NCBI GenBank assembly: GCA_964620805.1
Contig: CAZUJQ010000002.1
Coordinates: 6,253 to 70,252 of the forward strand
Origin: an uncultured Planctomycetales bacterium
Lineage (GTDB): Bacteria; Omnitrophota; Gorgyraeia; Zapsychrales; JAHFFX01
Reading direction: 5' to 3'
Length of the DNA stretch: 64,000 nucleotides
Position 1 is the first letter of the stretch, and each line of letters opens with the position of its first letter. Made by a program: the position numbers and the translations under genes. This document shows, in pieces, positions 4,297 to 55,280 of the stretch. A model generated the notes under the pieces. It was not told where the DNA came from. It worked only from the letters and a program-made list of their open reading frames with translations, and searched no databases.

Positions 4297-4299
4297 TAA

Positions 4300-4388
4300 G
4301 TTGCCAATGTTTCCAAAGTTTCCAAGGTTTAGGAAGGCAACCTCGGCAACTTTGGCAACTTTGGCAACATGGGAAACATGGGCAACTT
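4300..4388. repeat. family-A 9-mer-arm element, copy A1 (minimal: arms abut, no core)
   Basis: (gttgccaat)(gtttccaaa)(gtttccaag)(gtttaggaa) | (ggcaacctc)(ggcaacttt)(ggcaacttt)(ggcaacatg)(ggaaacatg)(ggcaactt). Confidence 0.8.
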
Positions 4389-4870
4389 CATTTCCGCAGC
4401 GTGATTTTCTCCTGCAGCCGGAAGTTCAGGGTTTCGCTTTTGGATATCTTCTTTTCGGCCCGCAAGGCGATTGCCAGCCGGTCCGTGCTGCTGTAATCAA
4501 AGGAAAGATCCGAGATGTCTCTTGCGATAATCCATTTTTGAGCATTATTTTCTCGGATGATGGTGTTAGCTTCTTTTCCGTTTTTATTAAAAGTAAAGGC
4601 GATGATCCCGACATAAGGTTTCTTAAAACGAATCGCCACACTTTCGGAATCTTTCGTGATGAGGATCCCCTCGGCTTCCCGCAGGTCTTTGACCATGGCA
4701 AAAAGCGCCCAGCGTACCTCCCGCTCCAAGGACAGCTTAGTGTAATAAGTTATCCATGATTTATTTCCTACGGCGAGCACGGTGTAGACTGCCATGATGA
4801 TCCCGGAGAAGATTCCCACAGCAACAAGAACTTCGACCAGACTCAGGGCCCTTTGAGAACGGAGATTCAT
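4388..4870 (-). CDS. prepilin-type N-terminal domain protein (PilW/GspJ-like pseudopilin)
   Basis: 'QRALSLVEVLVAVGIFSGIIMAV' is a degenerate class-III signal peptide / methylation motif followed by a hydrophobic helix. Confidence 0.45.
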   Translation of the reverse strand: MNLRSQRALSLVEVLVAVGIFSGIIMAVYTVLAVGNKSWITYYTKLSLEREVRWALFAMVKDLREAEGILITKDSESVAIRFKKPYVGIIAFTFNKNGKEANTIIRENNAQKWIIARDISDLSFDYSSTDRLAIALRAEKKISKSETLNFRLQEKITLRK

Positions 4871-13283: not shown

Positions 13284-15568
13284 ATCTCCTCATAAAGCCG
13301 TTCGTATTTCTCAACCATGTGCTCCAAGGAATAATGCTTTCGGATGAAATCCGAAGCCTCCCGGCCCATCTCTAAAAAGAGACTTCTGTCTTTAACGACC
13401 CGACCCAGGACCTTGACCAATCCGGTGACATCCCCCGGTGCGACAAGAAATCCGTTTTTGCCGTGCCAAATGATTTGCGGGATCCCTCCCACTTTTGTGG
13501 CCACAACTAGACGGGCACAGGCCATGGCCTCCAAAAGCGATAGAGGCACGCCTTCGGTTAAGGAGGTTAAGACAAAGATATCCAGAGCCGGGTAGAGGGA
13601 TGAGATGTCATCGATTAAGCCGGTAAAAAGGATGTGCTTCTCTAAATTTTTGTCCCGGACCAAGGCTTTCAAATAAGTCTCCTCTGGGCCATCGCCCACG
13701 ATCAGAAATTTAACAAGGGGGAACTCTTTTTGGATTTGGTCAGCCGCTTCGATCAACATCGCTTGATTTTTTTCGCGGCTCAGGCGCCCCACCGTGCCGA
13801 TCACGGCTTCTTCGTCCGAGATCCCATAACGGCTCCGAGCCGTTTTTCTTAAAACCGGATCATAGGAAAAGCGGTTCACATCCAGGCCGTTTGGAATCAC
13901 CTGTCTTTTTTGCGCCTTCAAATCCGGCAGGATGTTCTCAGCCACAACAACCACCCGACGAAAAAATGCCTTTAAAAGCCACCTGTCCAGTTTTTCATAC
14001 CAACGGACCGGCCGGGACATTTTTGTGTATCCATGGACCGTGGCGAGGAGGGGAACACCGTTTCCAGCCGTTGCCAGCAATCCCATAAGATCGGATTTGT
14101 AGTTGTGGGTATGGACAATATCAATTCGGTTTTGCCGGATAAATTTCTTTAGTAGCCGGCTGGTCCTCCAATCCCATCGTCCCCGGCTTTTAAATAAGGC
14201 GGTCTTCAGCCCCGCCTCCCGGGCCTTGTGGACAATCTCCAGATGAGGATTTCTCTCATCTTCGATGGCACCGATCATGGGGATAAATTTCCCGTGGTTC
14301 AAATGACGGGCCAGTGACAGGGCCACCCGCTCTGCGCCGAAAAAGCCTCCGCTGCTTATAAAATGTAAAACTTTTTTTATTAAAAGGGCCTGATAAAAAT
14401 TTTCGTATTCCCTCATCATCTGAGGAATGGTAAATTCTTTCTGGGCTCTTTGTCGTGCGTTTTGGCCCATGCTTTGTCTTTTCTCGGGATCCTCAATGAG
14501 TGTGAGCAAGGCCTCCTTTAAGGCCCGGGAATCGCCGGGGGCCACCAAAAGGCCATCCACCCCCTCCCGGATGAGTTCGGGATTGCCGCCCACACGGGTG
14601 GCGACCACGGCCTTGCCGGCCGCCATGTATTCTAAGATGGCGTTGGAGGTGCCTTCGCTCAAAGAGGGCAACACACAGATATCCGCGGCCTCGATAAAAC
14701 GCGAGACATCTTCGCGTTTTCCAAGAAAAAGGACATGCCTTTCCAATCTCTTTTTTCTGATGATCTCTTGTAGCTTTCCCCCCATTTTGTCTTCACCAAT
14801 CAACGCCAATCGGACCCGCGGATGGTCTACCACGATCTCCGGCAAGGCCTCGATGAGATAGATATGCCCTTTGACTGGCCGAAGATTCGCCACATGCACA
14901 ATTAAGGAAATGGGGTCACACCCCATTTCCCCACTTGAGGGAAATGGGGTGTGACCCCATTTTATTGGTGATTCCACGCCGTTATAGATCACCTCAATCC
15001 GCTCCGCGGGGATTCCCTCTTCTTTCATCATCCTCTCTTTTACGGCACCGGCCACCGCAATGAAGGTGTGCACCCAGCGGTTGATCAACTTGTAGGCGCT
15101 TCGATGAATGGGCTTGCGGCAGAACCCCATGTCCCGCCGGTTCGACACAATATGACGGACTCCCGCCCAATGCGCCCAGAACGTGCCCCAGATATCTGAT
15201 CCGAAATGATAGGTTTGGAGGATCTGGATGCGGTTGGCTTTGAGAAACCGCATAAAGCGGAGGCCCTGCACCATCCCCGAGATCCCGTAGATTCTCACCA
15301 CGCGGAAAACCTGGAATTCGCAGCCCGCCTCCCGCATCAGCTGTTGGGTGGACTCACAGATAGGATTCAGGCTGAGAACGAACACTCGATACCGTGAAGG
15401 GTCAAGATGAGAGATGAGCTGGTAAATCTGCTTTTCTGCCCCGGCCTGGAGGTCTTCCAGGACGTCGGTGAGCAATGCTAGGCGGATGGGTTGAGTGTTT
15501 TTCATATGAATATAAAATGTTGCTAATGTTTCCAAGGTTTCCAAAGTTGCCGAGGTTACCTGATTCAT
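13280..15568 (-). CDS. two-module glycosyltransferase (GT4-GT4 fusion); true start probably ATG at 15505 (MKNTQP...)
   Basis: Two successive GT-B GT4 units in one 762-aa ORF. The first 21 codons (MNQVTSATLETLETLATFYIH) are encoded by the family-A repeat. Carries the in-frame hairpin element at 14905-14962. Confidence 0.6.
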   Translation of the reverse strand: MNQVTSATLETLETLATFYIHMKNTQPIRLALLTDVLEDLQAGAEKQIYQLISHLDPSRYRVFVLSLNPICESTQQLMREAGCEFQVFRVVRIYGISGMVQGLRFMRFLKANRIQILQTYHFGSDIWGTFWAHWAGVRHIVSNRRDMGFCRKPIHRSAYKLINRWVHTFIAVAGAVKERMMKEEGIPAERIEVIYNGVESPIKWGHTPFPSSGEMGCDPISLIVHVANLRPVKGHIYLIEALPEIVVDHPRVRLALIGEDKMGGKLQEIIRKKRLERHVLFLGKREDVSRFIEAADICVLPSLSEGTSNAILEYMAAGKAVVATRVGGNPELIREGVDGLLVAPGDSRALKEALLTLIEDPEKRQSMGQNARQRAQKEFTIPQMMREYENFYQALLIKKVLHFISSGGFFGAERVALSLARHLNHGKFIPMIGAIEDERNPHLEIVHKAREAGLKTALFKSRGRWDWRTSRLLKKFIRQNRIDIVHTHNYKSDLMGLLATAGNGVPLLATVHGYTKMSRPVRWYEKLDRWLLKAFFRRVVVVAENILPDLKAQKRQVIPNGLDVNRFSYDPVLRKTARSRYGISDEEAVIGTVGRLSREKNQAMLIEAADQIQKEFPLVKFLIVGDGPEETYLKALVRDKNLEKHILFTGLIDDISSLYPALDIFVLTSLTEGVPLSLLEAMACARLVVATKVGGIPQIIWHGKNGFLVAPGDVTGLVKVLGRVVKDRSLFLEMGREASDFIRKHYSLEHMVEKYERLYEEI
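14905..14962. repeat. in-frame palindromic hairpin pair (GGAAATGGGGT-cac-ACCCCATTTCC ... GAAATGGGGT-gtg-ACCCCATTT) inside the GT4-GT4 gene
   Basis: Two 11-bp-stem hairpins 8 nt apart; translated in frame as 'KWGHTPFPSSGEMGCDPIS'. The same element recurs at 22584-22665. Confidence 0.75.
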
Positions 15569-15723
15569 CCAACATTCTTAAAGTTGCCCTTAAGTTGCCC
15601 AAGGTTACTGATTGATCCGACAATTTGTTGTTGGGTTAAGGCTTTGCAACCTCAAATAACCTTTCTGCAACCTCAAAAGGGCAACCTCGGCAACCTCGGC
15701 AACATGGGAAACATAGGCAACTT
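15519..15723. repeat. family-A element copy A2
   Basis: Left arm gttgctaat-gtttccaag-gtttccaaa-gttgccgag-gttacc; core tgattcatccaacattcttaaagttgcc; right arm ggcaacctc-ggcaacctc-ggcaacatg-ggaaacata-ggcaactt. Confidence 0.8.
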
Positions 15724-15727
15724 TATT

Positions 15728-17125: not shown

Positions 17126-17150
17126 TTTAAAATTTTGATCAGCCTATCAG

Positions 17151-17323
17151 GTTGCCTTTGTTTCCAGTGTTTCCGAGGTTGCCGATGTTAATTTATTTAC
17201 GTGACATTTTTAAGGTTGCTTAATGTTGCCTGATGTTGTCTTTTCCAACCTTTAGTAACTTCAGGCAACATCTTGAAAGGCAACCTTGGTAACTTTGGCA
17301 ACATAGGAAACATTGGCAACTTT
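17151..17323. repeat. family-A element copy A3 (core variant, leader ORF disrupted)
   Basis: gttgccttt-gtttccagt-gtttccgag-gttgccgat ... ggcaacctt-ggtaacttt-ggcaacata-ggaaacatt-ggcaacttt. Confidence 0.8.
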
Positions 17324-17891
17324 ATCTTGCCTCTTTACGAGGTTTGCTTTGAACCCTCGCCGGCACCCCCACAACCGTCGCCCCTTCCGGAACATCATCG
17401 ATCACGACCGAATTGGCGCCGACACGGGCATGATTTCCCACGCGGATCGCCCCCAAGACTTTTGCCCCGGTGCCGATGTACACACCATCGCCAATCACCG
17501 GCACGCCAGAATCTCCCAGTCCTCTGGTCCCAATGACGACGCCCGGGCCAATCGAGCAGTTCTCTCCCATCACGACATCGCTATGGAGGATGATTCCCCC
17601 AAAGTGGCCTACGTACAGTCCCCTCCCAATCTGAGCGCTGGCCGGAAGCGAGATGCCGGTCGTCATCTCAATCCATTTGAAGAGCAAAAACACCTCAAGA
17701 CGCAGGAGATGAGAGATCAACGGAAATTTCAAAGCCTGCGCCCACCGGCCGAAACGATACACCGCCAACGCCCAGATTCCCTGCTCGAAGAAAAGGTATA
17801 TCCGGTCTTGTCTCCGGCTATTTCGAAGATACCGGCGAATGTCTGCTGTGAAATTTGGGAACATCATGGTATAAGTTTCCAACGTTTCCAT
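17322..17891 (-). CDS. hexapeptide-repeat acetyltransferase (serine acetyltransferase-like / WcaB-like); start probably MMFPNF at ~17866
   Basis: Left-handed beta-helix hexapeptide repeats ('IGPGVVIGTRG', 'IGDGVYIGTGAKVLGAIRVGNHARVGANSVV') preceded by a SAT-like N-terminal helical region. The first 8 codons come from a degenerate repeat. Confidence 0.55.
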   Translation of the reverse strand: METLETYTMMFPNFTADIRRYLRNSRRQDRIYLFFEQGIWALAVYRFGRWAQALKFPLISHLLRLEVFLLFKWIEMTTGISLPASAQIGRGLYVGHFGGIILHSDVVMGENCSIGPGVVIGTRGLGDSGVPVIGDGVYIGTGAKVLGAIRVGNHARVGANSVVIDDVPEGATVVGVPARVQSKPRKEAR

Positions 17892-17894
17892 CGT

Positions 17895-18707
17895 TTATGC
17901 TTTGTTTGGACAAAGCAATCTCAAAACATTCTCTTTCGTAAAGACCTTCATGTCCAACGGATTCTCCAGGAAATTCACCACATCGCGGTGCACCTTCCGC
18001 CAGTCGGCTTTATCCACCACTTGATAGAGGAAATCCCGCCAATTGTCTTCCCGCGGGATCTCCTTTGTCCATCCCGTTTGCGTCAAGGCATTATGCAGCA
18101 ACCGAATGTTGGGTTTGATATCCCTCCAGCGGGATAGATACCATCCCAAATCAAAAAAGTCCCGGCCTTTGGTGTATTTGCGGCTCAGCAAAGCAGACAC
18201 TTTGCCGGCAAAGAATGACGGAAGATCGAAGGTCAAAAAGGCAAGCGGAAAATATTTGTTGATGATTTGTATTTCGAGCCGGCTGCCCTCAGGCGGGTTG
18301 GTATCAATTTCGATCTTGACCGATAATTTCTGTTTTTTTAACGGGGAGAGACCTGCTTCATACAGCAGTCCCTCGAACTTAACAAAGGCCGATTGAACCG
18401 TTTTGACTTCATTGTAAGTCACCGAAACGTTGTAGCCGGCCAGATCCAATTCCTGCTTGAGCTTCTTGATGAGCTTGACAAAAGACAATGTCCTGCCTTG
18501 TACATGGGAAAAGTCCAAATCCTCGGAAAAGCGAGGCAGATTGTGCAAAAACCGCAGGGCCGTTCCTCCCCAAAAAGCCGTTGTTTGAAAAATCCCGTCA
18601 TCATGGAGAATCCTTAAGACATAGGCCTGCAGATATTCCCGCATCGTATTGAGCCTGACCTGGGATCCTTCCTTCGCGCCCGTCAGCTCTAGGAGGTAGT
18701 CTTTCAT
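17895..18707 (-). CDS. nucleotidyltransferase AbiEii/AbiGii toxin family protein
   Basis: 'FWGGTALRFLHNLPRFSEDLDFS' (DUF1814/AbiEii signature); 4-nt overlap with the upstream AbiEi-like gene. Confidence 0.65.
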   Translation of the reverse strand: MKDYLLELTGAKEGSQVRLNTMREYLQAYVLRILHDDGIFQTTAFWGGTALRFLHNLPRFSEDLDFSHVQGRTLSFVKLIKKLKQELDLAGYNVSVTYNEVKTVQSAFVKFEGLLYEAGLSPLKKQKLSVKIEIDTNPPEGSRLEIQIINKYFPLAFLTFDLPSFFAGKVSALLSRKYTKGRDFFDLGWYLSRWRDIKPNIRLLHNALTQTGWTKEIPREDNWRDFLYQVVDKADWRKVHRDVVNFLENPLDMKVFTKENVLRLLCPNKA

Positions 18708-19342
18708 AAAGTTTTCTCTTTCTTTTTATAGGCCAGGACATAATCTTTAATCATGGCAGCGGATTGTTCCATACGCGGTTTGCCGAAGCGCCTGGCGTAT
18801 TCCGATAATTTCCGCAGGTTGATTTTTTCGACATTTTGCAGGCGCAATTCCGCCAGATAATCCATCGAGACGTCCACATGCCTGAAATAGATCAGATCCA
18901 GAATGGATTTTTCCGGCTCCGCCATAAAAGCTGTTTGCTTTCTGACCTCCAGGGAATGATATCCCCAAAAAAGCGACTGCTGAATGTGCCGGTAATCAAA
19001 AATCCCCACCGGGGTATTAAAACGGCCCTGGCGTTTCGTGGTGACCGCCGTATAAACATTTACAGCCTCCGGAATCAGATTGTGAAATTCCAAGGCCTTC
19101 TCTAAGCTGATGTAGGAAGGCCTCTTCAGAAGGCTGGCGACAGCCGGCTCGAAGATTTCAATCCCTCGATAAGGTTCGGCAAGGATATAAATCCCCCGCT
19201 TTAACTGGATCAACTTGCCGGCCTTTTCCCAGCGGCTGATTTGAACCTTAATCGCATCCGGCTTGAGGGCCCCGGCTGAAAGAATCTGAGTATTGATAAC
19301 CGGCAGATGCTTCACCTGTGAGATGAGCTCAGCAAAGTCCAT
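18704..19342 (-). CDS. AbiEi-family antitoxin (type IV TA / abortive infection partner)
   Basis: 212-aa protein immediately upstream of and overlapping AbiEii; N-terminal wHTH-like region. Confidence 0.5.
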   Translation of the reverse strand: MDFAELISQVKHLPVINTQILSAGALKPDAIKVQISRWEKAGKLIQLKRGIYILAEPYRGIEIFEPAVASLLKRPSYISLEKALEFHNLIPEAVNVYTAVTTKRQGRFNTPVGIFDYRHIQQSLFWGYHSLEVRKQTAFMAEPEKSILDLIYFRHVDVSMDYLAELRLQNVEKINLRKLSEYARRFGKPRMEQSAAMIKDYVLAYKKKEKTL

Positions 19343-20305: not shown

Positions 20306-20323
20306 TGGCGTTACTCGTAAGTA

Positions 20324-20624
20324 TCATTGCGACCCCGCCGTAGTTTGGCGGGGGAAGCAATCTTTTTACAATTTATCCCATAAATCTCCCCATGTAGAAA
20401 ACGCTGGTATAGGCTTCGTTCTTCTTCGCTCTCAGCCAAAGGCTGATCCGCCTCTGGCAGAAAATGTTCTTGCGTTTGCCCGCCCCGGCTATCGTGACTA
20501 GGCGGGCCAGGGAGCTTCGAAGGAACGATTCCTACGAAGCTCAAACATGAAAGTATTCGAGCGGAGAATAAAAGATTGCTTCGTCGCTTCGCTCCTCGCA
20601 ATGACACATTCCTCGCATGACACA
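20324..20624. repeat. family-B palindromic element core (TCATTGCGA...GAAGCAATCTTTT // AAAAGATTGCTTC...CTCGCAATGACA) split by a ~200-bp insertion that carries further repeat modules
   Basis: Left part 20324-20368 and right part 20568-20606 match the cores at 29731-29838 and 62458-62560. The insert contains 'AGAAAACGCTGGTATAGGCTTCG' (also at 24333) and 'CGAAGGAACGATTCCTACGAAGC'. Confidence 0.65.
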
Positions 20625-20636
20625 TGGAGAATAAGC

Positions 20637-21626: not shown

Positions 21627-21637
21627 TTTGAATATAA

Positions 21638-21802
21638 GTTGCCGATGTTTCCAAGGTTTCCGAGGTTGCCAAGGTTACCCTATTCATCTGACATCCTTTA
21701 AGGTTGATTGAGGTTATCTATGAGGGAAACCTCACGTAACTTTAGGCAACCTCTAAGAGGCAACCTTGGTAACTTTGGCAACATAGGAAACATCGGCAAC
21801 CT
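21638..21802. repeat. family-A element copy A4
   Basis: gttgccgat-gtttccaag-gtttccgag-gttgccaag-gttaccct; core attcatctgacatcctttaaggttg; right arm ggcaacctt-ggtaacttt-ggcaacata-ggaaacatc-ggcaacctg. Confidence 0.8.
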
Positions 21803-21820
21803 GATTGTCGGCTTCTTTTA

Positions 21821-23098
21821 TTAGACGCCGCCCCCAAACGCCTTGATGGCCTCCTGATAAGCCTTAAGCGATTCTTCCACTAATTTTTGATAGGAATAGG
21901 CTGTCCGGACCTTCTTTAACCCGTTGGCAGCCAGTTTAAGGCGTAACGCCTCATCTTGCAAGAGACGCAGGATGGCCTTCGCCAGCATCATAGCGTCCCC
22001 GGGATTAACCAGCAGGCCGTCTTTTTCGTGATGAATCAATTCTTTTAAACCTCCAGCGGTGGAAGCGATGAGGGCGCACCCCGAGGCCATCGCCTCCAGG
22101 GCGCTTAAGGGCAAACCCTCATCGTAAGAAGGCATGATCAGGATGGAACTTTTTCTTAACCAAATTTTAAGCTGATCCGGTGGCAATGTCCCCAGATATT
22201 CAAAATTTTTTGCTCCTATGGCTTCCCGCAGCATTTGACTGTTTTTCTTTCCATCAGAGGAGAAGGCATCAGCGCCCGCGACCGCCAATTGGACGTCAGG
22301 GAATTCTTTAATGACCAGGGGCAGGGCTTGGGCCATCACATCAATGCCTTTTCTTGGAATCAATCGACCGGCAAACAGGATCTGGCAAGGATCTTTTTTT
22401 CCATTGGGAGAGAAAATTTGACTATCAACCGCGTTATAAATGGTCTTGATATTCCGATTAATCCTCCAGACCTGCTTTACGAAATCCGCCGTATCCCTAG
22501 AGACCGCCGCCAAGCCATCCGCCTTAAGCAGGGTGTCCCGCTGCATGGCCCAAGAGATTCGCTCCTTTAAGCTCAAGGTGGTTGAAATGGGGTCACACCC
22601 CATTTCCCTGCCTAACGTTTCCTGGGTTGGAAATGGGGTTGGAAATGGGGTGTGACCCCATTTCCTAGACCATCCGTGCAGGCGAAAAAAGACCGGAAGG
22701 CGATTGTGGCGCCGGGCGTAAATAAACCCTTGCCGGAAATAATCGAAAGTTTCCACGATATCCAGGGCATATTCCGCTTGGACGGACTCGATTTTCTTCG
22801 CCACGGCTTTCGAATACCGCAAATCATTCAAGGGAAGAAACCGCTCAATCTTCCAGACCCCCGGGAAGAGATCGTCATCAAAGGGGACGTGGTGAACAAA
22901 AATATTTTGTCCCAATCGGCCGCGGTTTAAATCCCCTTCGTCCTGGCAAAGGATATGGACGGAGTGCCCCGCCTCACTCAAGGCCCTGGCATAATGGGCC
23001 GTGAAGGTCTCGATCCCGCCGGAATCTTGGTGAAAATTTCGACACAAAAGACAGATGTTCATCGGACTCCCCATCTCTCTCTTACTCAAGGGATTCAA
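21821..23098 (-). CDS. glycosyltransferase family 4
   Basis: GT-B fold, 'ILIMPSYDEGLPLSALEAMASGCALIASTAGG'. Carries the in-frame hairpin element at 22584-22665 ('RKWGHTPFPTPFPTQETLGREMGCDPIS'). Confidence 0.7.
   Translation of the reverse strand: MNPLSKREMGSPMNICLLCRNFHQDSGGIETFTAHYARALSEAGHSVHILCQDEGDLNRGRLGQNIFVHHVPFDDDLFPGVWKIERFLPLNDLRYSKAVAKKIESVQAEYALDIVETFDYFRQGFIYARRHNRLPVFFRLHGWSRKWGHTPFPTPFPTQETLGREMGCDPISTTLSLKERISWAMQRDTLLKADGLAAVSRDTADFVKQVWRINRNIKTIYNAVDSQIFSPNGKKDPCQILFAGRLIPRKGIDVMAQALPLVIKEFPDVQLAVAGADAFSSDGKKNSQMLREAIGAKNFEYLGTLPPDQLKIWLRKSSILIMPSYDEGLPLSALEAMASGCALIASTAGGLKELIHHEKDGLLVNPGDAMMLAKAILRLLQDEALRLKLAANGLKKVRTAYSYQKLVEESLKAYQEAIKAFGGGV
22584..22665. repeat. second copy of the in-frame palindromic hairpin pair (loop cac ... 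loop gtg), here with a 33-nt spacer holding an extra half-arm
   Basis: 'gaaatggggtcacaccccatttcc...ggaaatggggtt ggaaatggggtgtgaccccatttcc'; translated in the same frame as the copy at 14905-14962. Confidence 0.75.
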
Positions 23099-24248
23099 TC
23101 AAACCGGGAAGACCCGTAAATGTGACCTGAGTCCCTGCGTATTTCCTAGAGAACGTTCTATCTACATCCTGGGCCACAACAAAAACTTTGGCTTCAGGAT
23201 ATTGATAAAGAAAGGCCTCTAAGTTGTGACCGTCAAATTGATTAGCTTTCCATTTACATTCTATGGCAATAGGGCTAATGACCTTTCCCTTATTAGGAAT
23301 CACAAAGTCTATCTCGTGGCCTCGCTTGTCACGCCAGTAATGAATCTGGCGCTTATAAAGCTTCGCTAGAATTTCATTAAGAACATAATGTTCCCACAAA
23401 ATCCCCAAGTCCTGTTCCCGTAATTCGTACCATCCGCGGTAATAACAGACAAATCCTGTATCAAATCCATACACCTTGGGAGCTGAAATAATCTCGGTGG
23501 GACGATGAGAACTAAAAGGATGAACAATGTGAGCTACAAATGTCATCTCCAGAACCTTAAGATAATTGGTAATCGTGGTCCGACTCACCTCACAGGGAGC
23601 CGTAAATCGTGTGGCTTCAAAAATGCTCCCGCTTTGGGCCATAATCAATTCGATAAATTTTTGAAAAGAATACTTTCGCTCCAACCGAAACAATTCTTGA
23701 ATGTCCTTAGCCCAGTAAGCATCCATCCATTCCTGAAAATCAGCTTCTGGAAACTCCTTGGATAAAAGAAACGGTGGTAACCCCCCTCTTAATAAGCGAA
23801 ACTTGAAATCCTTGATTTCGAAATCCATCAGATCTTCATTAATAGCTGGAGCCAACCATATTTCCTTCTTTCTTCCTGACAACGTGTCTTTAAATTTTGA
23901 AGACGCGCCCAGAGTCGAGGAACCTGTGGCCAGAATTTTGATTCCCGGATAATGATCGGCAGCGATCTTAAGAAGCTGGGCTGGATTCTCATGCCGGTGA
24001 ATCTCATCCAACACAATACGCTCCCCCTTATTCTTAAAACTTTCCAGGAATTCTTCCGGATCTTCCATGAGGCGGCGTACCCGAGGCAACTCGCAATCGA
24101 AATATTCAACGGTATCCAAACTTTTAGACAAATACGTCTTGCCTACACGTCGGACTCCGGAAAGCCAAATCACTGAGCGCGTTTGCCATGACTTTTCTAT
24201 CTCTTTGACCCAGTAGTTTCTTTTTACCATTTGTATATATAATATCAT
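23082..24248 (-). CDS. ATP-binding protein (AAA domain + DUF4143)
   Basis: Walker A 'GVRRVGKT', Walker B 'IVLDEIH'; C-terminal DUF4143-like region. Similar in architecture to 30075..31343. Confidence 0.6.
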   Translation of the reverse strand: MILYIQMVKRNYWVKEIEKSWQTRSVIWLSGVRRVGKTYLSKSLDTVEYFDCELPRVRRLMEDPEEFLESFKNKGERIVLDEIHRHENPAQLLKIAADHYPGIKILATGSSTLGASSKFKDTLSGRKKEIWLAPAINEDLMDFEIKDFKFRLLRGGLPPFLLSKEFPEADFQEWMDAYWAKDIQELFRLERKYSFQKFIELIMAQSGSIFEATRFTAPCEVSRTTITNYLKVLEMTFVAHIVHPFSSHRPTEIISAPKVYGFDTGFVCYYRGWYELREQDLGILWEHYVLNEILAKLYKRQIHYWRDKRGHEIDFVIPNKGKVISPIAIECKWKANQFDGHNLEAFLYQYPEAKVFVVAQDVDRTFSRKYAGTQVTFTGLPGLIESLE

Positions 24249-24545: not shown

Positions 24546-24582
24546 GGGGCTCCTAGTATTTTCACTTTAGTTCCAATATAAA

Positions 24583-25150
24583 GTTTCCGATGTTTCCAAA
24601 GTTTCCGAGGTTTCCAATGTTACCTCATTGATTCGAGATGCTTTAAGGTTGCTTAACGTTGTTTCAGGTTAAATTTCATTCTTTCCGGGTGTTGTCCATT
24701 TACCTTTATTGGACGACTTGTTCATGGACTTAAGGTATTGATTACTCATGTAAAGAGCGCTTTTACATAGTTTGGTCAATTGATCGTGTTCTTGAGGATT
24801 GATTAGCTTATCTTCCAAGCAATCATCAATATCTCCGCTTAATTCTTCCAAGGATCCTTGGCTTATGCGTATGGCCTTCAGAAACTCGGCTAAACTTCCT
24901 CGGCTGTAGCCCTCCCTGATATTCTGCTTTGCTGAGCGCGTCGCGCTTCTCATCTCACTGACAAGTCTAATATGGCTTTTTTCAAATCGTGTTATGATAG
25001 CCGCAACTAACTTGCGAAGCTCGCATATGTCTTGATAAAATTTGAGCTTTTCGTATGGTCTTGCTGGCATCTGCAACCTCACATAACTTCTTTGCAACCT
25101 CCAAGAGGCAACCTCGGTAACTTCGGCAACATGGGCAACATCGGCAACCT
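24583..25150. repeat. family-A element copy A5 with the four-helix-bundle gene inserted between core and right arm
   Basis: Left arm 24583-24625 plus core ttgattcgagatgctttaaggttgcttaacg; right arm 25071-25150 begins immediately after the 4HB start codon. Confidence 0.75.
24669..25097 (-). CDS. four-helix-bundle protein (23S rRNA intervening-sequence protein family; probable start at 25070, MPARPY)
   Basis: 'SATRSAKQNIREGYSRGSLAEFLKAIRISQGSLEELSGDIDDCLE' matches the S23/IVS four-helix-bundle family. Sits entirely inside family-A repeat copy A5. Confidence 0.6.
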   Translation of the reverse strand: MQRSYVRLQMPARPYEKLKFYQDICELRKLVAAIITRFEKSHIRLVSEMRSATRSAKQNIREGYSRGSLAEFLKAIRISQGSLEELSGDIDDCLEDKLINPQEHDQLTKLCKSALYMSNQYLKSMNKSSNKGKWTTPGKNEI

Positions 25151-26632: not shown

Positions 26633-26778
26633 GAACTTGAGTTTGGCAAATTTTCGAATTTGTCGTCGGAAAAGTCTCTCGGATCGCAAAAACAGGTTTT
26701 CGATACCACAAAATTGCTTTCTCGACGAGAACTACCTGAAAATACGGCCCAAAAGCCCGAAAAAGTGCCAAACTCAAG
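26633..26778. mobile_element. MITE-like element copy 1 (146 bp, terminal inverted repeats GAACTTGAGTTTGGCA / TGCCAAACTCAAG), possible 5-bp target duplication AACCG
   Basis: 146/146 identity with 59589-59734 as far as I can align by eye; flanks '...attAACCG|aacttgag...ctcaag|AACCGaat'. Confidence 0.7.
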
Positions 26779-29714: not shown

Positions 29715-29908
29715 AAGTTATTAACTTTGGTGTCATTGCGAGCCATCGTTGATATTTCGTTTTGGCGAAGCAATCTTTTTAGACGATCTCAAAGATTGCT
29801 TCGTCGTCGCTAAAAAGCGCTCCTCCTCGCAATGACACGATCTGGCATCCCCAAGTTTCATACTAATATTCTTTTTGATACCTACTCTTCATAAAACTTT
29901 TGACAGTA
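29708..29908. mobile_element. family-B MITE-like element (TIRs TTGTCAAAAGTT ... AACTTTTGACA with internal multi-hairpin core TGTCATTGCGAG...CTCGCAATGACA)
   Basis: Matches 62436-62630 in the same architecture, and the core at 20324-20624. Confidence 0.6.
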
Positions 29909-32977: not shown

Positions 32978-34249
32978 CTATACGTTGCCGAAGGGGAAAG
33001 TAGGGACAGCGCCCACTTTTGAAAAAGTAGGCGCTGTCCCTACTTTCCGAATTTCCTCCCAGGCCCGAAGAGCCAGGCTGTCAGGAATCTCCAAATCCTG
33101 GAAGGTCAAGATTTGCTCGGGTTCAACCGTTCTCTTGACGAGGGCGTTATGCACCAACCCCAAGGGCATATGCCCCGGATGTTCGGTCATTTTGACCGTC
33201 ACGCCCCGCAAAGAAAAGCTTCCCATGCCATGGGGAATCGATTCTCCCGGTGATAATTTCTTTTTCGCGATCGCGGCGATGCTGACTGTAGGACGGCTAG
33301 AGTTGTTGAGAAGAGCCGATCTTCCTTCAAAAGCCCTGCGAATAGTTTTAGGAATTTCCAGATGGCAGAGAATATGATTTTTAAAGAGCGAATAATAGGG
33401 TCCCTCTCCTAGTTTGAAATAATCCAGGGCCTGCTGCTGCACTTCGTCATGTTCCGCGATTAGAAAAATTTTGAAATGCGATTTGGCGATGACCGTGTAA
33501 TCGCTGATCGCTTGGCCGAGGCGCTTGGCTTCCTCAGCCAGGATATTCACGCACTCCTGAAAATTCTTAGTCTGGGGGCCCAGCATCCCGGTCTGTAGAA
33601 TAGTGGCGTTGAGGCCGTTGGCTATCAAGGCTTGCTCATACTGCATCTTGGTTCCATCGGTCGCGGCTGTGACCATGCCTAAAGTCAATCTCTGTTTCCT
33701 GGACCAAAATTGCATGTTTTCCAAAGACGGATTGGGATCGTAGAATCCCTTGACATTGCCAAAGACCAAGGGCCGAAATCCCATTTGGACAGCGTCCTCA
33801 TGGAGGGCCGCCAGGCAGCCGGGTTGATCTCCTTCGGCCTCGGTCAGATAACCTTTGTCCACAAAAAAAGAACCGGTCGTCACGTGGAATTCAGAGTTCA
33901 TGGTGACGACCGGAAGGCCCGCTTGAAAAGCGCGGTTGACAACCTCGGTGGCATGCAGAACATCGCCGCTACATTCCACGATCAAATCGGAATGGTCGAT
34001 GAGTTCGTCCAGAGAATTGGTCATAAGGTCCGACCGCGGGAATTCCCAACAGGAAGCAATGGGCCGGCGGGTCAAAACTTTGGAGACCGCGAAATCCTGC
34101 ACATTCTGCATGGCGAGCATAAAGCCCCGGGCGATGAATCCTGAGCCGACGACACCGATTTTTTTGATGGAACTTTTCATGGTTTTAAATTGCTCAAATG
34201 TTTCCAATGTTTCCGAAGTTTCCGAGGTTGCCAAGGTTATCTTATTCAT
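32978..34249 (-). CDS. NAD(P)-binding oxidoreductase with C-terminal SAF-like domain (COG4091-like); start probably MKSSIKK at 34180
   Basis: 'IGVVGSGFIARG' Rossmann motif. The first 23 listed codons are repeat-encoded. Confidence 0.4.
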   Translation of the reverse strand: MNKITLATSETSETLETFEQFKTMKSSIKKIGVVGSGFIARGFMLAMQNVQDFAVSKVLTRRPIASCWEFPRSDLMTNSLDELIDHSDLIVECSGDVLHATEVVNRAFQAGLPVVTMNSEFHVTTGSFFVDKGYLTEAEGDQPGCLAALHEDAVQMGFRPLVFGNVKGFYDPNPSLENMQFWSRKQRLTLGMVTAATDGTKMQYEQALIANGLNATILQTGMLGPQTKNFQECVNILAEEAKRLGQAISDYTVIAKSHFKIFLIAEHDEVQQQALDYFKLGEGPYYSLFKNHILCHLEIPKTIRRAFEGRSALLNNSSRPTVSIAAIAKKKLSPGESIPHGMGSFSLRGVTVKMTEHPGHMPLGLVHNALVKRTVEPEQILTFQDLEIPDSLALRAWEEIRKVGTAPTFSKVGAVPTFPFGNV

Positions 34250-34364
34250 TCCGACATTCTTAAGGTTAATTAACGTTGCCTGACGTTTTCAACCTTTTGT
34301 AACTTCGGGTAACCTCTAAAAGGCAACTTCGGCAACGTCGGCAACCTGGGAAACATTGGCAACA
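34190..34364. repeat. family-A element copy A6
   Basis: gtttccaat-gtttccgaa-gtttccgag-gttgccaag-gttatctta; core ttcattccgacattcttaaggttaattaacgttgcc; right arm ggcaacttc-ggcaacgtc-ggcaacctg-ggaaacatt-ggcaacata. Confidence 0.8.
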
Positions 34365-34370
34365 TAATCA

Positions 34371-36331: not shown

Positions 36332-36360
36332 AGGTTGCCAATGTTATCTCATTTTATAAA

Positions 36361-36486
36361 TAGGTTAGGTAGTGTGGTAAAGGTTAAGTTGTGAGTTTAG
36401 TAGTGAGGTTAAGAAGTGTGTCAAATGCCGACACTCACTACCCACTACTCACAACTTAACACACTCCCTTACCCTAACCTCACAAC
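36361..36486. repeat. family-E long inverted repeat (left arm C-free, right arm G-free) downstream of rfbC
   Basis: About 55-nt arms: 'ggttaggtagtgtggtaaaggttaagttgtgagtttagtagtgag' versus 'ctcactacccactactcacaacttaacacactcccttaccctaacc'. Confidence 0.7.
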
Positions 36487-36512
36487 CCATCCTTTCGTAG
36501 CTTCAGACAACC

Positions 36513-37097: not shown

Positions 37098-37131
37098 GGT
37101 TTTCCTTAAATGCTGATTCTAATAATCAGAG

Positions 37132-37250
37132 GGCTGTGAGGTTAAGGTAAGGTAGTGTGTTAAGTAATGTGGTTAAGTAGTGGGTCAGGACTCACTACTC
37201 ACTACCCACAACTAAACTCACTACATAACCTTTACCCCACATCCAGATTT
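37132..37250. repeat. family-E long inverted repeat (second copy) upstream of rfbC
   Basis: 'gtgaggttaaggtaaggtagtgtgttaagtaatgtggttaagtagtggg' (no C) / 'ctcactactcactacccacaactaaactcactacataacctttacccc' (no G). Confidence 0.7.
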
Positions 37251-38179: not shown

Positions 38180-38197
38180 TTTTTATTTCCGTAATAA

Positions 38198-38397
38198 GTT
38201 GCCGATGTTTCCAGAGTTTCCGAGGTTTCCGATGTTACCTGATTCATCCGACATCCTTTAAGGTTGCTTAAGGCTGTCTTTCTGAACCTCTTGTAACCTT
38301 AGGGAAACCTCTGAAAAGGCAACCTCGGCAACCTGCCTGCCATTTGCAGTGTCAATCGGCAGGCAGGCATTGGCAACGTTGGAAACATGGGCAACCT
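38198..38397. repeat. family-A element copy A7 (right arm interrupted by a 36-bp palindrome at 38333-38368)
   Basis: gttgccgat-gtttccaga-gtttccgag-gtttccgat-gttacctga; core ttcatccgacatcctttaaggttgcttaagg; right arm ggcaacctc-ggcaacctg-[cctgcctgcc...ggcaggcagg]-ggcaacgtt-ggaaacatg-ggcaacctt. Confidence 0.8.
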
Positions 38398-39350
38398 TAC
38401 TTGCCCCACTTCCCCTTAAAATATTCGGCCGTCTTTGCCAGCCCCTCTTCGAACTCCACGATGGGTTTATACTTAAGCACCTTTTTAATCTTGGAGATAT
38501 CCGCGTTGGTGCGAAACACATCTCCCGGCCGGACCGGCAGGAGTTGGGGGTCAATATTTTTCCCCAGGATGCGGTTTAAGACCGCCGCGAGTTTAAGAAC
38601 CGTATGGTCCTGTCCACTGGCGACGTTCAGGACCTCGTGCCGGAGACCAGGAGTTGTGGCCGCCAGGATGTTGGCGAAAATGACGTTCTCGATATACGTA
38701 AAATCCCGGGATTGCTTTCCTGTTCCGAAAATTGGCGGCTGTTCATTATGCAAAAGAGAATGGATGAATTTTGGGATGACCACGGCATATTCATCATCCA
38801 GCGATTGTTTTGGCCCGAAGACGTTAAAATAGCGTAGGCACACCGTCTCCACCCCAAAAAATTCCGAGAAGATCCGACAGTAATACTCCCCCGCGAGTTT
38901 GCTTAAGGCATAAGGTGAAATCAACAAAGGAAGATCCGTCTCTTTTTCCGGGAATTTTTTAACGTCTCCGTAGATCGAGCTCGAAGACGCGAAGACAAAG
39001 CGTTTGATTTTATTGTGGGAAGCGGCCTGAAGCATAAAAAGCGTCCCGTTGATATTCACGTCATGATAGCTTTCTGGATCTTTCATGGATTTGGGAACCG
39101 AACGTAGCGCCGCCTGATGAAGGACGTAATCCATTCCCTGACAGGCCTTTTGGCAAGTGCCCTTATCACGGATGTCCCCTAGCATCAGCTCAAATCTGTC
39201 TTTGCCCAAAGTTTTGGCAAATTCCAGATTGTCTTGGGTGCCGGAAGAGAAATTGTCTAGAACTCTCACAAAATGATTTTGTTTGATGAGGGCCTCGGCA
39301 ATATTGGATCCGATGAATCCTGCCCCACCGGTGATGAGGTATTTATCCAT
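38397..39350 (-). CDS. NAD-dependent nucleotide-sugar epimerase/dehydratase (WbpP/TviC-like UDP-sugar 4-epimerase family)
   Basis: 'ITGGAGFIGSNIAEAL', YxxxK 'YALSK' extended SDR. Confidence 0.65.
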   Translation of the reverse strand: MDKYLITGGAGFIGSNIAEALIKQNHFVRVLDNFSSGTQDNLEFAKTLGKDRFELMLGDIRDKGTCQKACQGMDYVLHQAALRSVPKSMKDPESYHDVNINGTLFMLQAASHNKIKRFVFASSSSIYGDVKKFPEKETDLPLLISPYALSKLAGEYYCRIFSEFFGVETVCLRYFNVFGPKQSLDDEYAVVIPKFIHSLLHNEQPPIFGTGKQSRDFTYIENVIFANILAATTPGLRHEVLNVASGQDHTVLKLAAVLNRILGKNIDPQLLPVRPGDVFRTNADISKIKKVLKYKPIVEFEEGLAKTAEYFKGKWGK

Positions 39351-55192: not shown

Positions 55193-55204
55193 GGTTTGTA
55201 CCTT

Positions 55205-55280
55205 CTTTCCTCCGACATCTTTTAAGGATGATATAACAAATCAAAGGCAACCTTGGAACACTAGAAACATGGGCGACTTG
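55205..55280. repeat. family-A element, partial copy A8 (core + right arm only)
   Basis: tccgacatcttttaaggatg ... ggcaacctt-ggaacacta-gaaacatgg-gcgacttg, upstream of the ferredoxin gene. Confidence 0.55.

What the first reader, a model, noticed from the sequence alone, without database searches (positions are those of the whole stretch)
21638..21802. Undescribed ~170-200 bp intergenic cassette with inverted arms of tandem 9-bp units (GTTKCCNNN / NNNGGMAAC), 8 copies, all in one orientation between consecutive genes
Copies are at 4300-4388, 15519-15723, 17151-17323, 21638-21802, 24583-25150, 34190-34364, 38198-38397 and partially 55205-55280. Each fills the gap between the stop of one minus-strand gene and the start of the next.

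Each copy has 4-5 tandem 9-mers, a conserved core (TGATTCATCCGACATCCTTTAAGGTTGCTTAAGG), a variable stretch, then 4-5 tandem 9-mers that are the reverse complement of the first arm. This predicts a long imperfect RNA/DNA stem of about 40 bp.

Read in the gene direction, the core supplies AAGGA + ATG and the proximal arm encodes a short periodic peptide. In copy A7 it is MNQVTSETSETLETSATYYGNKK, whose TGA overlaps the rfbA ATG (ATGA). In A4 it stops 8 nt before the gene's first ATG. In A2 and A6 it runs in frame into the downstream gene. In A3 it is disrupted (MSRK*).

That combination (SD, start codon, Thr/Ser/Glu-rich leader ORF, translational coupling, and a complementary arm that could sequester the leader coding sequence and RBS) suggests a cis-regulatory or RNA-processing module.

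Alternatives are an RNase-III-type processing stem or a non-autonomous mobile element. I know of no described element with this architecture.
Basis: seen in the sequence. Interest (0 to 1): 0.9.

Follow-up and report, generated by a model that had tools for sequence, protein, structure and literature searches.

The report
Hairpin repeats derived from IVS-protein cassette
The repeated ~170-bp intergenic cassette is real, but it is the gene-less form of a hairpin-shaped selfish element whose complete copy 3 kb away carries a small 'rRNA intervening-sequence / Avd-like' protein gene in its loop; it is not a leader-peptide regulator, and it ties a widespread protein family of unknown function to a family of dispersed RNA/DNA hairpins.

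Summary
Seven full or near-full copies, one truncated copy and two remnants of a cassette with inverted arms of five 9-nt units (GTTKCC+3) lie in gene gaps of a minus-strand glycan operon, probably from an Omnitrophota genome.

The other copies are the same hairpin without that gene.

An 82%-identical gene in another genome sits in a different operon between the same arms. Seven gene-less copies lie on unrelated contigs, and five of those are antisense to their flanking genes. The core ATG is present in only 8 of 15 copies. The leader-peptide reading is therefore not general.

More distant PF05635 genes (9 of 11 scored) are also flanked by inverted arrays of short tandem units (period 7-10, about 4-5 units) with paralogue-specific sequence. 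The Coxiella 23S IVS has heptamers in the same position.

Best reading: an IVS-type selfish hairpin cassette with non-autonomous derivatives, co-transcribed with the operon and probably an RNase III substrate. The protein may bind the repeat units. How it moves is unknown. I class it as a new variant of a known kind.

The parts
21635..21803 (-). Copy A4 (the finding): ORF-less hairpin cassette between the GT4 gene (21821-23098) and the GT2 gene (start about 21611).
   Evidence: Profile hit E 3.9e-50, 164 bits on the minus strand. MFE hairpin -71.8 kcal/mol, z = -7.3. Inverted arms 42 nt long, 83% complementary.
21759..21800 (-). A4 5' arm in element sense: five units, GTTGCC-GAT GTTTCC-TAT GTTGCC-AAA GTTACC-AAG GTTGCC.
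21638..21679 (-). A4 3' arm in element sense: GGTAAC-CTT GGCAAC-CTC GGAAAC-CTT GGAAAC-ATC GGCAAC.
21680..21703 (-). It is unpaired in the MFE structure. In ORF-bearing copies it lies after the ORF stop.
   Evidence: comparison with A5 and L124.
24580..25150 (-). Copy A5: the complete cassette. It has the same arms and core, with a protein gene filling the apical loop.
   Evidence: Profile hits: model positions 3-122 match 25150-25034 and positions 83-177 match 24674-24580. In the whole-element fold the arms pair around the ORF.
24669..25070 (-). 133-aa PF05635 / TIGR02436 four-helix-bundle gene ('23S rRNA intervening-sequence protein', Avd-like). A GAGG motif lies 6 nt upstream of the ATG, and the stop TAA lies inside the first 3' TAACCT unit.
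   Evidence: Pfam E 9.4e-16, 58.4 bits against a cutoff of 33.8. TIGR02436 49.2 bits against a cutoff of 24. PHROG 'Avd protein of DGR' E 8e-6. AlphaFold model pLDDT 88.9 with four long helices. Foldseek matches 2gsc, 2rld, 4dwl and 8ub7.
4297..4389 (-). Copy A1: minimal hairpin with the arms directly abutting and no core.
   Evidence: MFE -37.6 kcal/mol.
15516..15724 (-). Copy A2: ORF-less, with about 40 nt of extra sequence in the loop region. It is 93% identical to a copy on another contig (L143).
   Evidence: Profile hit E 3.3e-49; BLAST comparison.
17149..17323 (-). Copy A3: ORF-less, with a degraded core.
   Evidence: Profile hit E 3.6e-46.
17875..17889 (-). Remnant: two 3'-arm units (sense GGAAACGTTGGAAAC) between the AbiEii stop and the hexapeptide-transferase ATG.
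34197..34366 (-). Copy A6: ORF-less.
   Evidence: Profile hit E 2.7e-48. Arms 46 nt long, 80% complementary.
36334..36348 (-). Remnant: two 3'-arm units (sense GATAACATTGGCAAC) just before the rmlD ATG.
38195..38398 (-). Copy A7: ORF-less. A 36-bp palindrome (38332-38367) is nested in the 5' arm, and the same insert is present in L141.
   Evidence: Profile hit E 1.1e-45.
55201..55279 (-). Copy A8: truncated, with a degenerate 5' arm and the core but no 3' arm. It lies in a fatty-acid beta-oxidation operon, outside the glycan cluster.
   Evidence: Profile hit E 2.5e-4; sequence; flanking genes.

Best explanation
**What it is.** The cassette is the non-autonomous, gene-less form of a hairpin-shaped selfish cassette of the kind first seen as ORF-bearing intervening sequences in 23S rRNA. 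The complete form (A5) has two arms of five 9-nt units, about three degenerate inner units that also supply the Shine-Dalgarno sequence, a conserved roughly 20-nt bulge on the 3' side, and a PF05635 four-helix-bundle gene exactly in the apical loop. The other copies are the same hairpin with the coding sequence absent.

**Shown.**
- Cassettes sit in the short gaps of operons, in either orientation.
- They occur in unrelated gene contexts in several genomes.
- They fold into an imperfect hairpin of about 60 bp on either strand.

**Inferred.**
- Because they lie inside operons, they are transcribed with the operon.
- By analogy with the Coxiella, Leptospira and Salmonella intervening sequences, the long stem is cut by RNase III. 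That would excise the cassette and split the polycistronic mRNA without harming the flanking genes.
- The encoded protein, probably a pentamer like its solved relatives, recognises the repeated units of its own hairpin and of the gene-less copies in trans.

**Unknown.** How new copies are made.
For: **The cargo gene and its place in the hairpin.**
- A5 carries a PF05635 gene between the same arms and core as the ORF-less copies.
- In A5 and L124 the two halves of the ORF-less profile end at the ATG and restart at the stop codon.

**Arms and gene travel together.**
- P0006 is 82% identical to the A5 protein and lies between a MiaB-like gene and queG in another assembly. It is flanked by the same arms, 44 nt long and 82% complementary.
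- Homologues at 65% identity in two other glycan operons have 9-nt periodic arms with a diverged unit (GGTTA/TAACC) and 5.0 and 4.9 units.

**Dispersal of ORF-less copies.**
- Seven ORF-less copies lie on other contigs between unrelated genes: bioB-like/POR, malQ/epimerase, hemN/hemE, a P-type ATPase/gcvT, and pilin-like genes.

**The pattern is general.**
- 9 of 11 PF05635 genes scored have significant inverted flanks (z = 5.7-17). These are built of tandem units of period 7-10 with paralogue-specific sequence.
- A twelfth gene, inspected by eye (L170), has only two inner units upstream and no 3' arm.
- One 12-kb stretch holds 7 such genes.
- ORF-less hairpins of other unit types also exist: L166 7158-7298 and L126 12071-12248.

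**Parallels in described systems.**
- The Coxiella IVS has 3-4 tandem heptamers in the 5' stem before its S23p ORF, and RNase III excises it (PMC4990558).
- The Avd pentamer grips an RNA hairpin, with flipped-out bases sitting in the crevices between protomers (bioRxiv 10.1101/2023.10.23.563531).

**Arm structure.**
- The arms pair in register (81% of cells, against 25-44% when the partner is slid by 1-3 columns).
- The hexamers are invariant, and mismatches sit at fixed spacer positions.

**Weak hint of RNA-level selection.**
- The transcribed strand folds better in 9 copies, worse in 2, and ties in 2. G:U pairs number 72 on the transcribed strand against 56 on the other.
Against: - There are no expression or cleavage data, so RNase III processing and protein binding are inferences by analogy.
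- There is no covariation above the shuffle control (110 of 500 shuffles reach the observed score). Complementarity could therefore be inherited from a recent master copy rather than selected.
- No target-site duplication or empty site was found, so mobility is inferred only from the different contexts.
- The uniform orientation of all window copies is unexplained if orientation is free.
- Three of the 12 PF05635 genes examined lack arms.
- Copies A3 and A4 fold better on the non-transcribed strand.
- The Coxiella study concluded that its S23p is probably not expressed, which cautions against assuming a role for the protein.
Confidence: 0.6

Rival explanations
1. Ordinary DNA transposon derivative (MITE). 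The tandem hexamers would be subterminal binding sites for a transposase encoded elsewhere in the genome, and the PF05635 gene would be a passenger.
For: - The element has terminal inverted repeats, multiple copies and different contexts in both orientations.
- Each arm keeps its own conserved sequence rather than only complementarity to the other arm, as expected for protein-binding sites on DNA.
- There is no covariation.
Against: - No transposase, integrase or RT was found among 40 window ORFs or next to the copies on other contigs.
- No target-site duplication is recognisable.
- PF05635 genes go with inverted tandem arrays across many unrelated unit sequences (9 of 11 scored). That is hard to explain if the gene is a chance passenger.
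Confidence: 0.2
2. One reading: a host cis-regulatory module. The core supplies an SD and ATG for a short Thr/Ser/Glu leader ORF that couples translation to the downstream gene, and the distal arm sequesters it.
For: - All window copies are in gene sense.
- In A7 the leader ORF exists and its TGA overlaps the rfbA ATG.
- The arms end 13-26 nt before the downstream start codons.
Against: - Five of seven copies elsewhere are antisense to their flanking genes.
- The ATG is present in only 8 of 15 copies that have a core. It is absent from both ORF-bearing copies at that position.
- The core lies 3' of the PF05635 stop codon in the complete element.
- The open frame through the arm follows from the stop-free hexamers themselves.
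Confidence: 0.08
3. Host-beneficial mRNA punctuation. The hairpins would have been recruited as processing or stabilising sites that set the relative dosage of genes in long glycan operons, as REP/BIME and ERIC elements do in enterobacteria.
For: - Copies are enriched in one long operon, all in sense orientation.
- The transcribed strand tends to fold better.
- Complete cassettes in three other genomes also lie in glycan or exosortase operons.
Against: - Copies also sit between unrelated housekeeping genes and in a beta-oxidation operon.
- Positions differ between homologous clusters: the EpsH/EpsI junction is occupied in L166 and empty in the window.
- Decayed remnants are present, which suggests neutral turnover.
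Confidence: 0.1
4. Integron-like recombination sites (attC analogues) that delimit exchangeable gene cassettes in the glycan locus.
For: - The sites are imperfect inverted repeats of 90-210 bp, all in one orientation between consecutive co-directional genes.
- The ends carry GTT/AAC triplets.
- Defence-type genes (AbiEi/AbiEii and PDC-S01 ATPases) are interspersed in the cluster.
Against: - No tyrosine recombinase lies in the 64 kb.
- The hexamer GTTGCC does not fit the attC core GTTRRRY (from my own knowledge of attC sites).
- Elsewhere the copies are single, lie between housekeeping genes and occur in both orientations.
Confidence: 0.02

Closest known systems
ORF-bearing 23S rRNA intervening sequences (Coxiella burnetii, Leptospira; S23p ORF)
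   Same: - A long stem formed by terminal inverted repeats, with a PF05635 gene in the loop.
- Short tandem repeats in the 5' stem just upstream of the ORF (GACAGAT x3-4 in Coxiella).
- ORF-less counterparts exist: the short IVSs of Salmonella.
- Regarded as selfish and horizontally spread (PMC4990558).
   Different: - The present elements lie between protein-coding genes, not in helix 25 or 45 of 23S rRNA. Rfam finds no rRNA in the window.
- The arms are regular five-unit 9-nt arrays.
- There are many ORF-less copies per genome, in both orientations.
- RNase III excision has not been shown here.
Avd of diversity-generating retroelements (PDB 4dwl, 8ub7)
   Same: - The same fold and family (Foldseek probability 1.00, TM about 0.7-0.8; PHROG hit).
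- Avd is a pentamer that binds an RNA hairpin encoded next to its own gene, using equivalent contacts from different protomers.
   Different: - No reverse transcriptase and no template/variable repeat pair were found here.
- Sequence identity to Avd is only 6-9%.
- RNA binding by the present protein is untested.
Intergenic palindromic repeats of bacteria (ERIC/IRU, Correia/NEMIS, REP/BIME, RUP, BOX) and the REPIN-RAYT pairing
   Same: - Elements of 100-200 bp that form hairpins.
- They lie in transcribed intergenic gaps, in either orientation and in many copies.
- Some are RNase III or RNase E substrates.
- As with RAYT genes flanked by REP sequences, one protein gene sits between the same repeats that are dispersed without it. 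(All from my own knowledge of these families.)
   Different: - The arms are tandem arrays of a 9-nt unit rather than a unique inverted repeat.
- The associated gene is a four-helix bundle with no known nuclease or transposase motif.
- No TA or other target duplication was seen.
Integron attC sites
   Same: Imperfect hairpin-forming sites between consecutive co-oriented genes. All copies within the window share one orientation.
   Different: - No integrase is present.
- The core motif does not fit.
- Elsewhere the copies are single and occur in both orientations.

Membership tests
PF05635 / TIGR02436 four-helix-bundle ('23S rRNA intervening-sequence protein') family (for the A5 ORF) | Profile score above the curated cutoff | tested here: met
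   Pfam 58.4 bits against a cutoff of 33.8. TIGR02436 49.2 bits against a cutoff of 24.
PF05635 / TIGR02436 four-helix-bundle ('23S rRNA intervening-sequence protein') family (for the A5 ORF) | Four-helix-bundle fold like XCC0516, BT_0352 and Avd | tested here: met
   The model has pLDDT 88.9 and four long helices. Foldseek matches: 2gsc E 5e-5, TM 0.76-0.92; 2rld; 4dwl and 8ub7 at probability 1.00.
PF05635 / TIGR02436 four-helix-bundle ('23S rRNA intervening-sequence protein') family (for the A5 ORF) | Homopentameric barrel | not tested
   Only a monomer was modelled. The solved relatives have five chains each.
23S rRNA intervening sequence (IVS) | Inserted in 23S rRNA (helix 25 or 45) | tested here: not met
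   Rfam finds no rRNA in the window. All copies lie between protein-coding genes.
23S rRNA intervening sequence (IVS) | Terminal inverted repeats forming a long stem, with the ORF (if any) in the loop | tested here: met
23S rRNA intervening sequence (IVS) | Excised from the transcript by RNase III | not testable with these tools
   This needs RNA end-mapping or an in vitro cleavage assay.
MITE (non-autonomous DNA transposon) | Terminal inverted repeats and multiple dispersed copies | tested here: met
MITE (non-autonomous DNA transposon) | Target-site duplication | tested here: inconclusive
   The flanks of 15 copies show only an extension of the inverted repeat (TAAR|GTTGCC...GGCAAC|YTTA) and no direct repeat. 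No empty site was available for comparison.
MITE (non-autonomous DNA transposon) | An autonomous relative with the same ends that encodes a transposase | tested here: not met
   The ORF-bearing relatives (A5, L124) encode only the PF05635 protein. No transposase was found in the window.
Leader-peptide / translational-coupling regulator | Conserved start codon and reading frame, in a fixed orientation upstream of the regulated gene | tested here: not met
   The ATG is present in 8 of 15 copies. Five of 7 external copies are antisense.
Integron attC | An associated IntI integrase and the R''/R' core sites (RYYYAAC/GTTRRRY) | tested here: not met
   No recombinase was found. The terminal hexamer GTTGCC does not fit GTTRRRY (read directly from the sequence).
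Diversity-generating retroelement | A reverse transcriptase plus a template/variable repeat pair next to the Avd-like gene | tested here: not met
   No RT was found among the scanned ORFs. The neighbours of A5 are the Wzt ABC ATPase and an AAA_14/DUF4143 ATPase.

The most novel reading that the evidence does not exclude
PF05635 proteins outside DGRs would be the trans-acting partners of a large, previously unrecognised class of hairpin elements, in which each paralogue recognises its own short tandem unit. About five units per arm would match the five protomers. The protein would bind the transcribed hairpin, or its DNA cruciform, to control its processing or copying. 23S rRNA intervening sequences, the operon cassettes seen here, and the Avd-RNA module of DGRs would then be three faces of one ancient protein-hairpin partnership with autonomous and non-autonomous members.
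Probability: 0.25. Interest if true: 0.8.

Novelty: new variant of a known kind. Interest (0 to 1): 0.6.

Why it matters
**An open question made testable.** PF05635 / 'four helix bundle' genes are abundant in bacterial genomes; one 12-kb stretch here holds seven. Apart from Avd in DGRs they have no known function, and the origin and mobility of rRNA intervening sequences have been open since about 1990. This locus offers a compact natural test system: one gene-bearing cassette and at least seven gene-less copies in a single operon. It gives concrete predictions:
- staggered RNase III cuts in the stems;
- binding of the protein to five-unit arms;
- unit-specific recognition that differs between paralogues.

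**Practical consequences for annotation.**
- Gene callers start genes inside the arms. For example, the 762-aa GT4 ORF begins at 15568.
- They call spurious ORFs across the arms, such as 4301-4759(+), 17313-18137(+) and 38344-38832(+).
- Repeat-based screens may mistake the arms for CRISPR-like arrays.

Tried and rejected
- **Genome collection scan with the bare four-unit arm pattern.** All 120 hits were Gly-Asn-type coding repeats, mostly in high-GC taxa, and none had inverted arms.
- **Rfam at gathering thresholds.** No hit.
- **Viral contigs with the protein alignment.** No relatives.
- **PLSDB plasmids by tblastn at 1e-8.** No match.
- **PADLOC.** No hit for the PF05635 protein.
- **RNAalifold consensus.** It chose a register shifted by one unit because tandem arms can slip, so it was not informative. 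I imposed the full register instead and found no covariation above the shuffle control.
- **Target-site duplication.** None was seen.
- **Empty-site search through RmlA homologues.** The nearest relative is only 72% identical, so no orthologous empty site was available.
- **GC-skew test of whether orientation follows replication.** It is confounded by the coding strand.
- **Promoter and terminator scan of the A4 region.** Nothing above chance.
- **Literature searches.** Searches for PF05635, TIGR02436, S23p and four-helix bundle together with repeats found the Coxiella IVS paper and DGR papers. None described operon-borne cassettes or periodic arms. The library is limited to open-access texts.
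Full report
**1. The observation**

The sequence at 21638-21802 is as described. The three-unit pattern GTTKCC-N3-GTTKCC-N3-GTTKCC, with up to one mismatch, occurs 37 times in the window.

Tandem Repeats Finder reports the 9- and 18-nt arrays at the same places. The inverted-repeat search pairs them into arms of 42-46 nt that are 80-83% complementary.

A profile built from 12 copies finds the window copies at these positions:
- 4297-4389
- 15516-15724
- 17149-17323
- 21635-21803
- 24580-25150 (matched in two halves)
- 34197-34366
- 38195-38398
- 55201-55279

Minus-strand scores for the five full ORF-less copies are 150-164 bits and plus-strand scores are 57-92 bits. The internal orientation is therefore unambiguous, and every window copy faces the same way as the genes.

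The 185-nt region around A4 folds into a single long hairpin on either strand: -71.8 kcal/mol (z = -7.3) for the mRNA sense and -84.1 kcal/mol (z = -9.3) for the other strand.

Two small remnants were missed. Each consists of two 3'-arm units, at 17875-17889 and 36334-36348.

**2.

The long copy A5 is not a copy with a long 'variable stretch'. Between its arms lies a 133-aa ORF (24669-25070, minus strand). It matches Pfam PF05635 '23S rRNA-intervening sequence protein' (E 9.4e-16, 58.4 bits, cutoff 33.8). It also matches NCBIfam TIGR02436 'four helix bundle protein' (49.2 bits, cutoff 24).

An AlphaFold model (pLDDT 88.9) shows four long helices. Its best structural matches are XCC0516 (2gsc), BT_0352 'S23 ribosomal protein family' (2rld), and the Avd protein of the Bordetella phage DGR (4dwl, 8ub7). 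PHROGs also names it Avd-like.

Sixteen homologues at 56-81% identity share 39 invariant columns, so the gene is under purifying selection.

The ORF fills the loop of the hairpin exactly:
- The 5' half of the ORF-less profile runs up to the ATG.
- The 3' half restarts at the stop codon, in both A5 and its relative L124.
- GAGG lies 6 nt before the ATG.
- The TAA stop lies inside the first 3' TAACCT unit.
- The whole 581-nt element folds with the arms paired around the ORF.

The ORF-less copies are the same hairpin lacking the coding sequence.

**3. The gene and the arms travel together, and the ORF-less form is dispersed**

The window is identical to metagenome contigs from three sources. Its nearest named relatives, for both the PF05635 protein and RmlA, are Candidatus Omnitrophota MAGs at 65-72% identity. 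The organism is therefore probably an Omnitrophota member with no close sequenced relative.

*Gene-bearing relatives in other contexts:*
- A protein 82% identical to the A5 ORF lies in assembly GCA_964515035.1 between a MiaB-like radical-SAM gene and queG. It is flanked by the same arms (44 nt, 82% complementary) and the same core.
- Homologues at about 65% identity lie between wzm and wzt (L125) and between a GT2 gene and epsH (L126). A homologue at about 59% identity lies between epsH and epsI (L166). All are co-oriented with their neighbours.
- In the window, epsH and epsI overlap. That junction is occupied in L166 and empty here.
- Their arms are again tandem arrays, with a diverged unit (GGTTAnnnn / nnnnTAACC, period 9, 5.0 and 4.9 copies) or GAGGTTGGCT (period 10, 5.0 copies).

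*ORF-less copies elsewhere:*
- One metagenome scan with a 22-nt 3'-arm pattern gave 34 loci. Seven of these carry complete ORF-less copies with both arms and the core, on contigs that otherwise do not match the window.
- Their neighbours are bioB-like/POR, malQ/epimerase, hemN/hemE, a P-type ATPase/gcvT, and pilin-like genes.

**4. Orientation and the leader-ORF idea**

In five of those seven external copies the element is inverted relative to co-directional flanking genes (L128, L129, L141, L145, L147). In two it is in sense orientation (L134, L143).

It is present in 8 of the 15 copies that have a core, and it is absent at that position from both gene-bearing copies (sequences).

The open frame through the arm is a by-product of hexamers that contain no stop codon in that frame.

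It may still matter locally, for example in A7, where the TGA overlaps the rfbA ATG.

Why all ten window copies and remnants share one orientation is unexplained. A GC-skew test for a link to replication direction was confounded by the coding strand.

**5. Anatomy of the arms**

Each arm has five units.
- 5' arm consensus: GTTGCC-nAT GTTTCC-CAT GTTGCC-rAn GTTGCC-GAG GTTGCC.
- Reverse complement of the 3' arm: GTTGCC-rAT GTTTCC-AAr GTTTCC-GAG GTTGCC-rAT GTTACC.

With the full register imposed on 12 copies, 81% of cells pair, against 25-44% when the partner is slid by 1-3 columns. The hexamer positions are nearly invariant. The middle A:U of each spacer is kept in 10-11 of 12 copies. The first and third spacer positions are usually mismatched at the same places in all copies.

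Covariation does not exceed the shuffle control (110 of 500 shuffles reach the observed score). There is therefore no independent statistical proof of selection for pairing. The regular 'six paired, mismatch, pair, mismatch' pattern could be inherited from a master copy or could itself be the conserved feature.

The transcribed strand folds better than the other strand in 9 copies, worse in 2 (A3, A4), and ties in 2. It also holds more G:U pairs (72 against 56). This is a weak hint of RNA-level constraint (sign test about 0.07, two-sided, by my own calculation).

No target-site duplication is visible. The ends look like TAAR|GTTGCC ... GGCAAC|YTTA. No promoter or terminator signal exceeds chance.

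**6. A general architecture for this protein family**

On a 250-kb contig (L162/L163), seven PF05635 genes lie within 12.4 kb. Each is wedged between unrelated genes, including spoVG, a response regulator, a ParE/Phd pair and histidine kinases.

I scored upstream against downstream flanks for 11 PF05635 genes from five genomes. Nine have significant inverted flanks (z = 5.7 to 17 against shuffles). These flanks are built of tandem units whose sequence and period differ from paralogue to paralogue:
- GTACATC, period 7
- GGTCACnn, period 8
- TAGTCGC, period 7
- AAGGTTGnn, period 9-10
- GAGGTTGGCT, period 10

A twelfth gene, on L170, was inspected by eye. It keeps only two inner units.

The arrays next to these genes have about 4-5.6 units whatever the period. 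TRF's score threshold truncates the low end of that range.

ORF-less hairpins of other unit types also occur:
- L166 7158-7298: five period-10 units per arm, -63 kcal/mol.
- L166 4699-4992.
- L126 12071-12248.
- In the window itself, 39388-39475 (period 7) and about 36355-36488.

**7. Comparison with what is known**

The Coxiella burnetii IVS is a 428-nt element in helix 45 of 23S rRNA. It has a long stem, an S23p (PF05635) ORF in the loop, and three to four tandem heptamers (GACAGAT) in the 5' stem just before the ORF. RNase III excises it. Its origin and mobility are unknown, and its protein is probably not made (PMC4990558). The tandem-unit stem plus loop ORF is the architecture found here.

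In the DGR ribonucleoprotein, the Avd pentamer binds an RNA stem-loop encoded beside its gene. Bases flipped out of the stem sit in the crevices between protomers, and the same residues from different protomers make the contacts (bioRxiv 10.1101/2023.10.23.563531). That gives a structural precedent for a pentamer reading a periodic feature on a hairpin. The step from there to 'five units per arm match five protomers' is my inference.

I found no paper describing PF05635 cassettes in operon gaps, their periodic arms or their ORF-less derivatives. The library covers open-access texts only. A large CRISPR-association screen lists '23S rRNA IVP' in a figure legend among domains newly associated with CRISPR adaptation modules (PMC10910872). 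I did not establish whether the tandem arms contribute to that.

**8. Membership**

The A5 protein is a member of PF05635/TIGR02436. The score cutoffs and the fold criterion are met; the oligomeric state was not tested.

The cassette works like an rRNA IVS but is not one, because the defining location in 23S rRNA is not met.

It resembles a MITE in having inverted ends, many copies and decay products. However, the defining autonomous transposase relative is not met, and the target duplication is inconclusive.

Integron attC, DGR and leader-peptide attenuator memberships each fail a defining feature (see the membership table).

**9. Verdict**

The cassette is real and far from chance. It is best explained as the non-autonomous form of an IVS-type hairpin cassette that carries a PF05635 gene.

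*Shown:*
- the architecture;
- the link between the gene and the arms;
- dispersal to unrelated contexts in both orientations;
- the generality of tandem-unit arms around this gene family.

*Inferred:*
- co-transcription with the operon;
- RNase III excision;
- binding of the protein to the units.

*Unknown:*
- the copying mechanism;
- the reason for the uniform orientation in this operon.

I rate it a new variant of a known kind and moderately to highly interesting. It gives a concrete handle on two old questions: what S23p/IVS proteins do, and how intervening sequences spread.

Noticed in passing
window 26633-26778 and 59589-59734: Two 100%-identical direct copies of a 146-bp element with terminal inverted repeats (CTTGAGTTTGGCA / TGCCAAACTCAAG). 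This is a second, unrelated MITE-like repeat.
   Followed up: partly
window 39388-39475: A hairpin with 38-nt arms (84% complementary, 12-nt loop) built of period-7 units (GCTCATA / GCTATGG). It lies between the epimerase gene and the AAA_31 gene, and is a different unit family of the same hairpin class.
   Followed up: partly
window 36355-36488, 37131-37165 and 37190-37224: A long hairpin lies downstream of rmlC. A 35-nt arm upstream of rmlC is 91% complementary to 36454-36488, so rmlC is bracketed by inverted arms. Five ACTCACT heptamers lie next to that upstream arm.
   Followed up: partly
window 62458-62560, 20321-20366, 29793-29838 and 20593-20625: Another palindromic repeat family (GTGTCATTGCGAGG...CCTCGCAATGACAC and AAGCAATCT/AGATTGCTT), with one full copy and several partial copies.
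   Followed up: no
window 12584-12649: Two heptamer arrays (ACTGACG x4.4, then CTCTGAG x4.3; 66 nt in all) lie inside the GT4 ORF 12039-13283. They fall at the linker between its two Pfam domains, so they appear to be an in-frame repeat insertion in a coding region.
   Followed up: no
window 17895-19342, 23082-24248 and 30075-31343: Defence-type genes interrupt the glycan cluster: an AbiEi/AbiEii pair and two AAA_14/DUF4143 ATPases that match the PADLOC candidate system PDC-S01. Several sit next to hairpin copies or remnants.
   Followed up: partly
window 34380-34429: The last ~17 codons of the GDP-mannose-dehydratase-like gene (34371-35402) are made of 9-nt repeats (sense GAGGTTnnn-like). They lie directly upstream of copy A6, so the C-terminal tail of the gene looks like a recruited or decayed arm.
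   Followed up: no
window 38332-38367; L141 about 4895-4935: The same 36-bp GC-rich palindrome (GCCTGCC...GGCAGGC) is nested in the 5' arm of A7 and of a copy on an unrelated contig. It marks a sub-lineage of the element.
   Followed up: partly
L162/L163 1-12402: Seven PF05635 genes lie within 12.4 kb of one contig, interleaved with spoVG, a response regulator, a ParE/Phd pair and histidine-kinase genes. This is a striking local proliferation of the family.
   Followed up: partly
window 13280-15568, 4301-4759(+), 17313-18137(+) and 38344-38832(+): The ORF finder, and for the 762-aa GT4 product the public gene call, starts or extends ORFs inside the repeat arms. This includes the 762-aa GT4 product and three plus-strand ORFs across A1, A3 and A7. 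These are probably annotation artefacts caused by the stop-free hexamers.
   Followed up: no
window 32995-33048: A 26-nt near-perfect palindrome (96% complementary, 2-nt loop) lies at the 3' end of gene 32978-34249.
   Followed up: no
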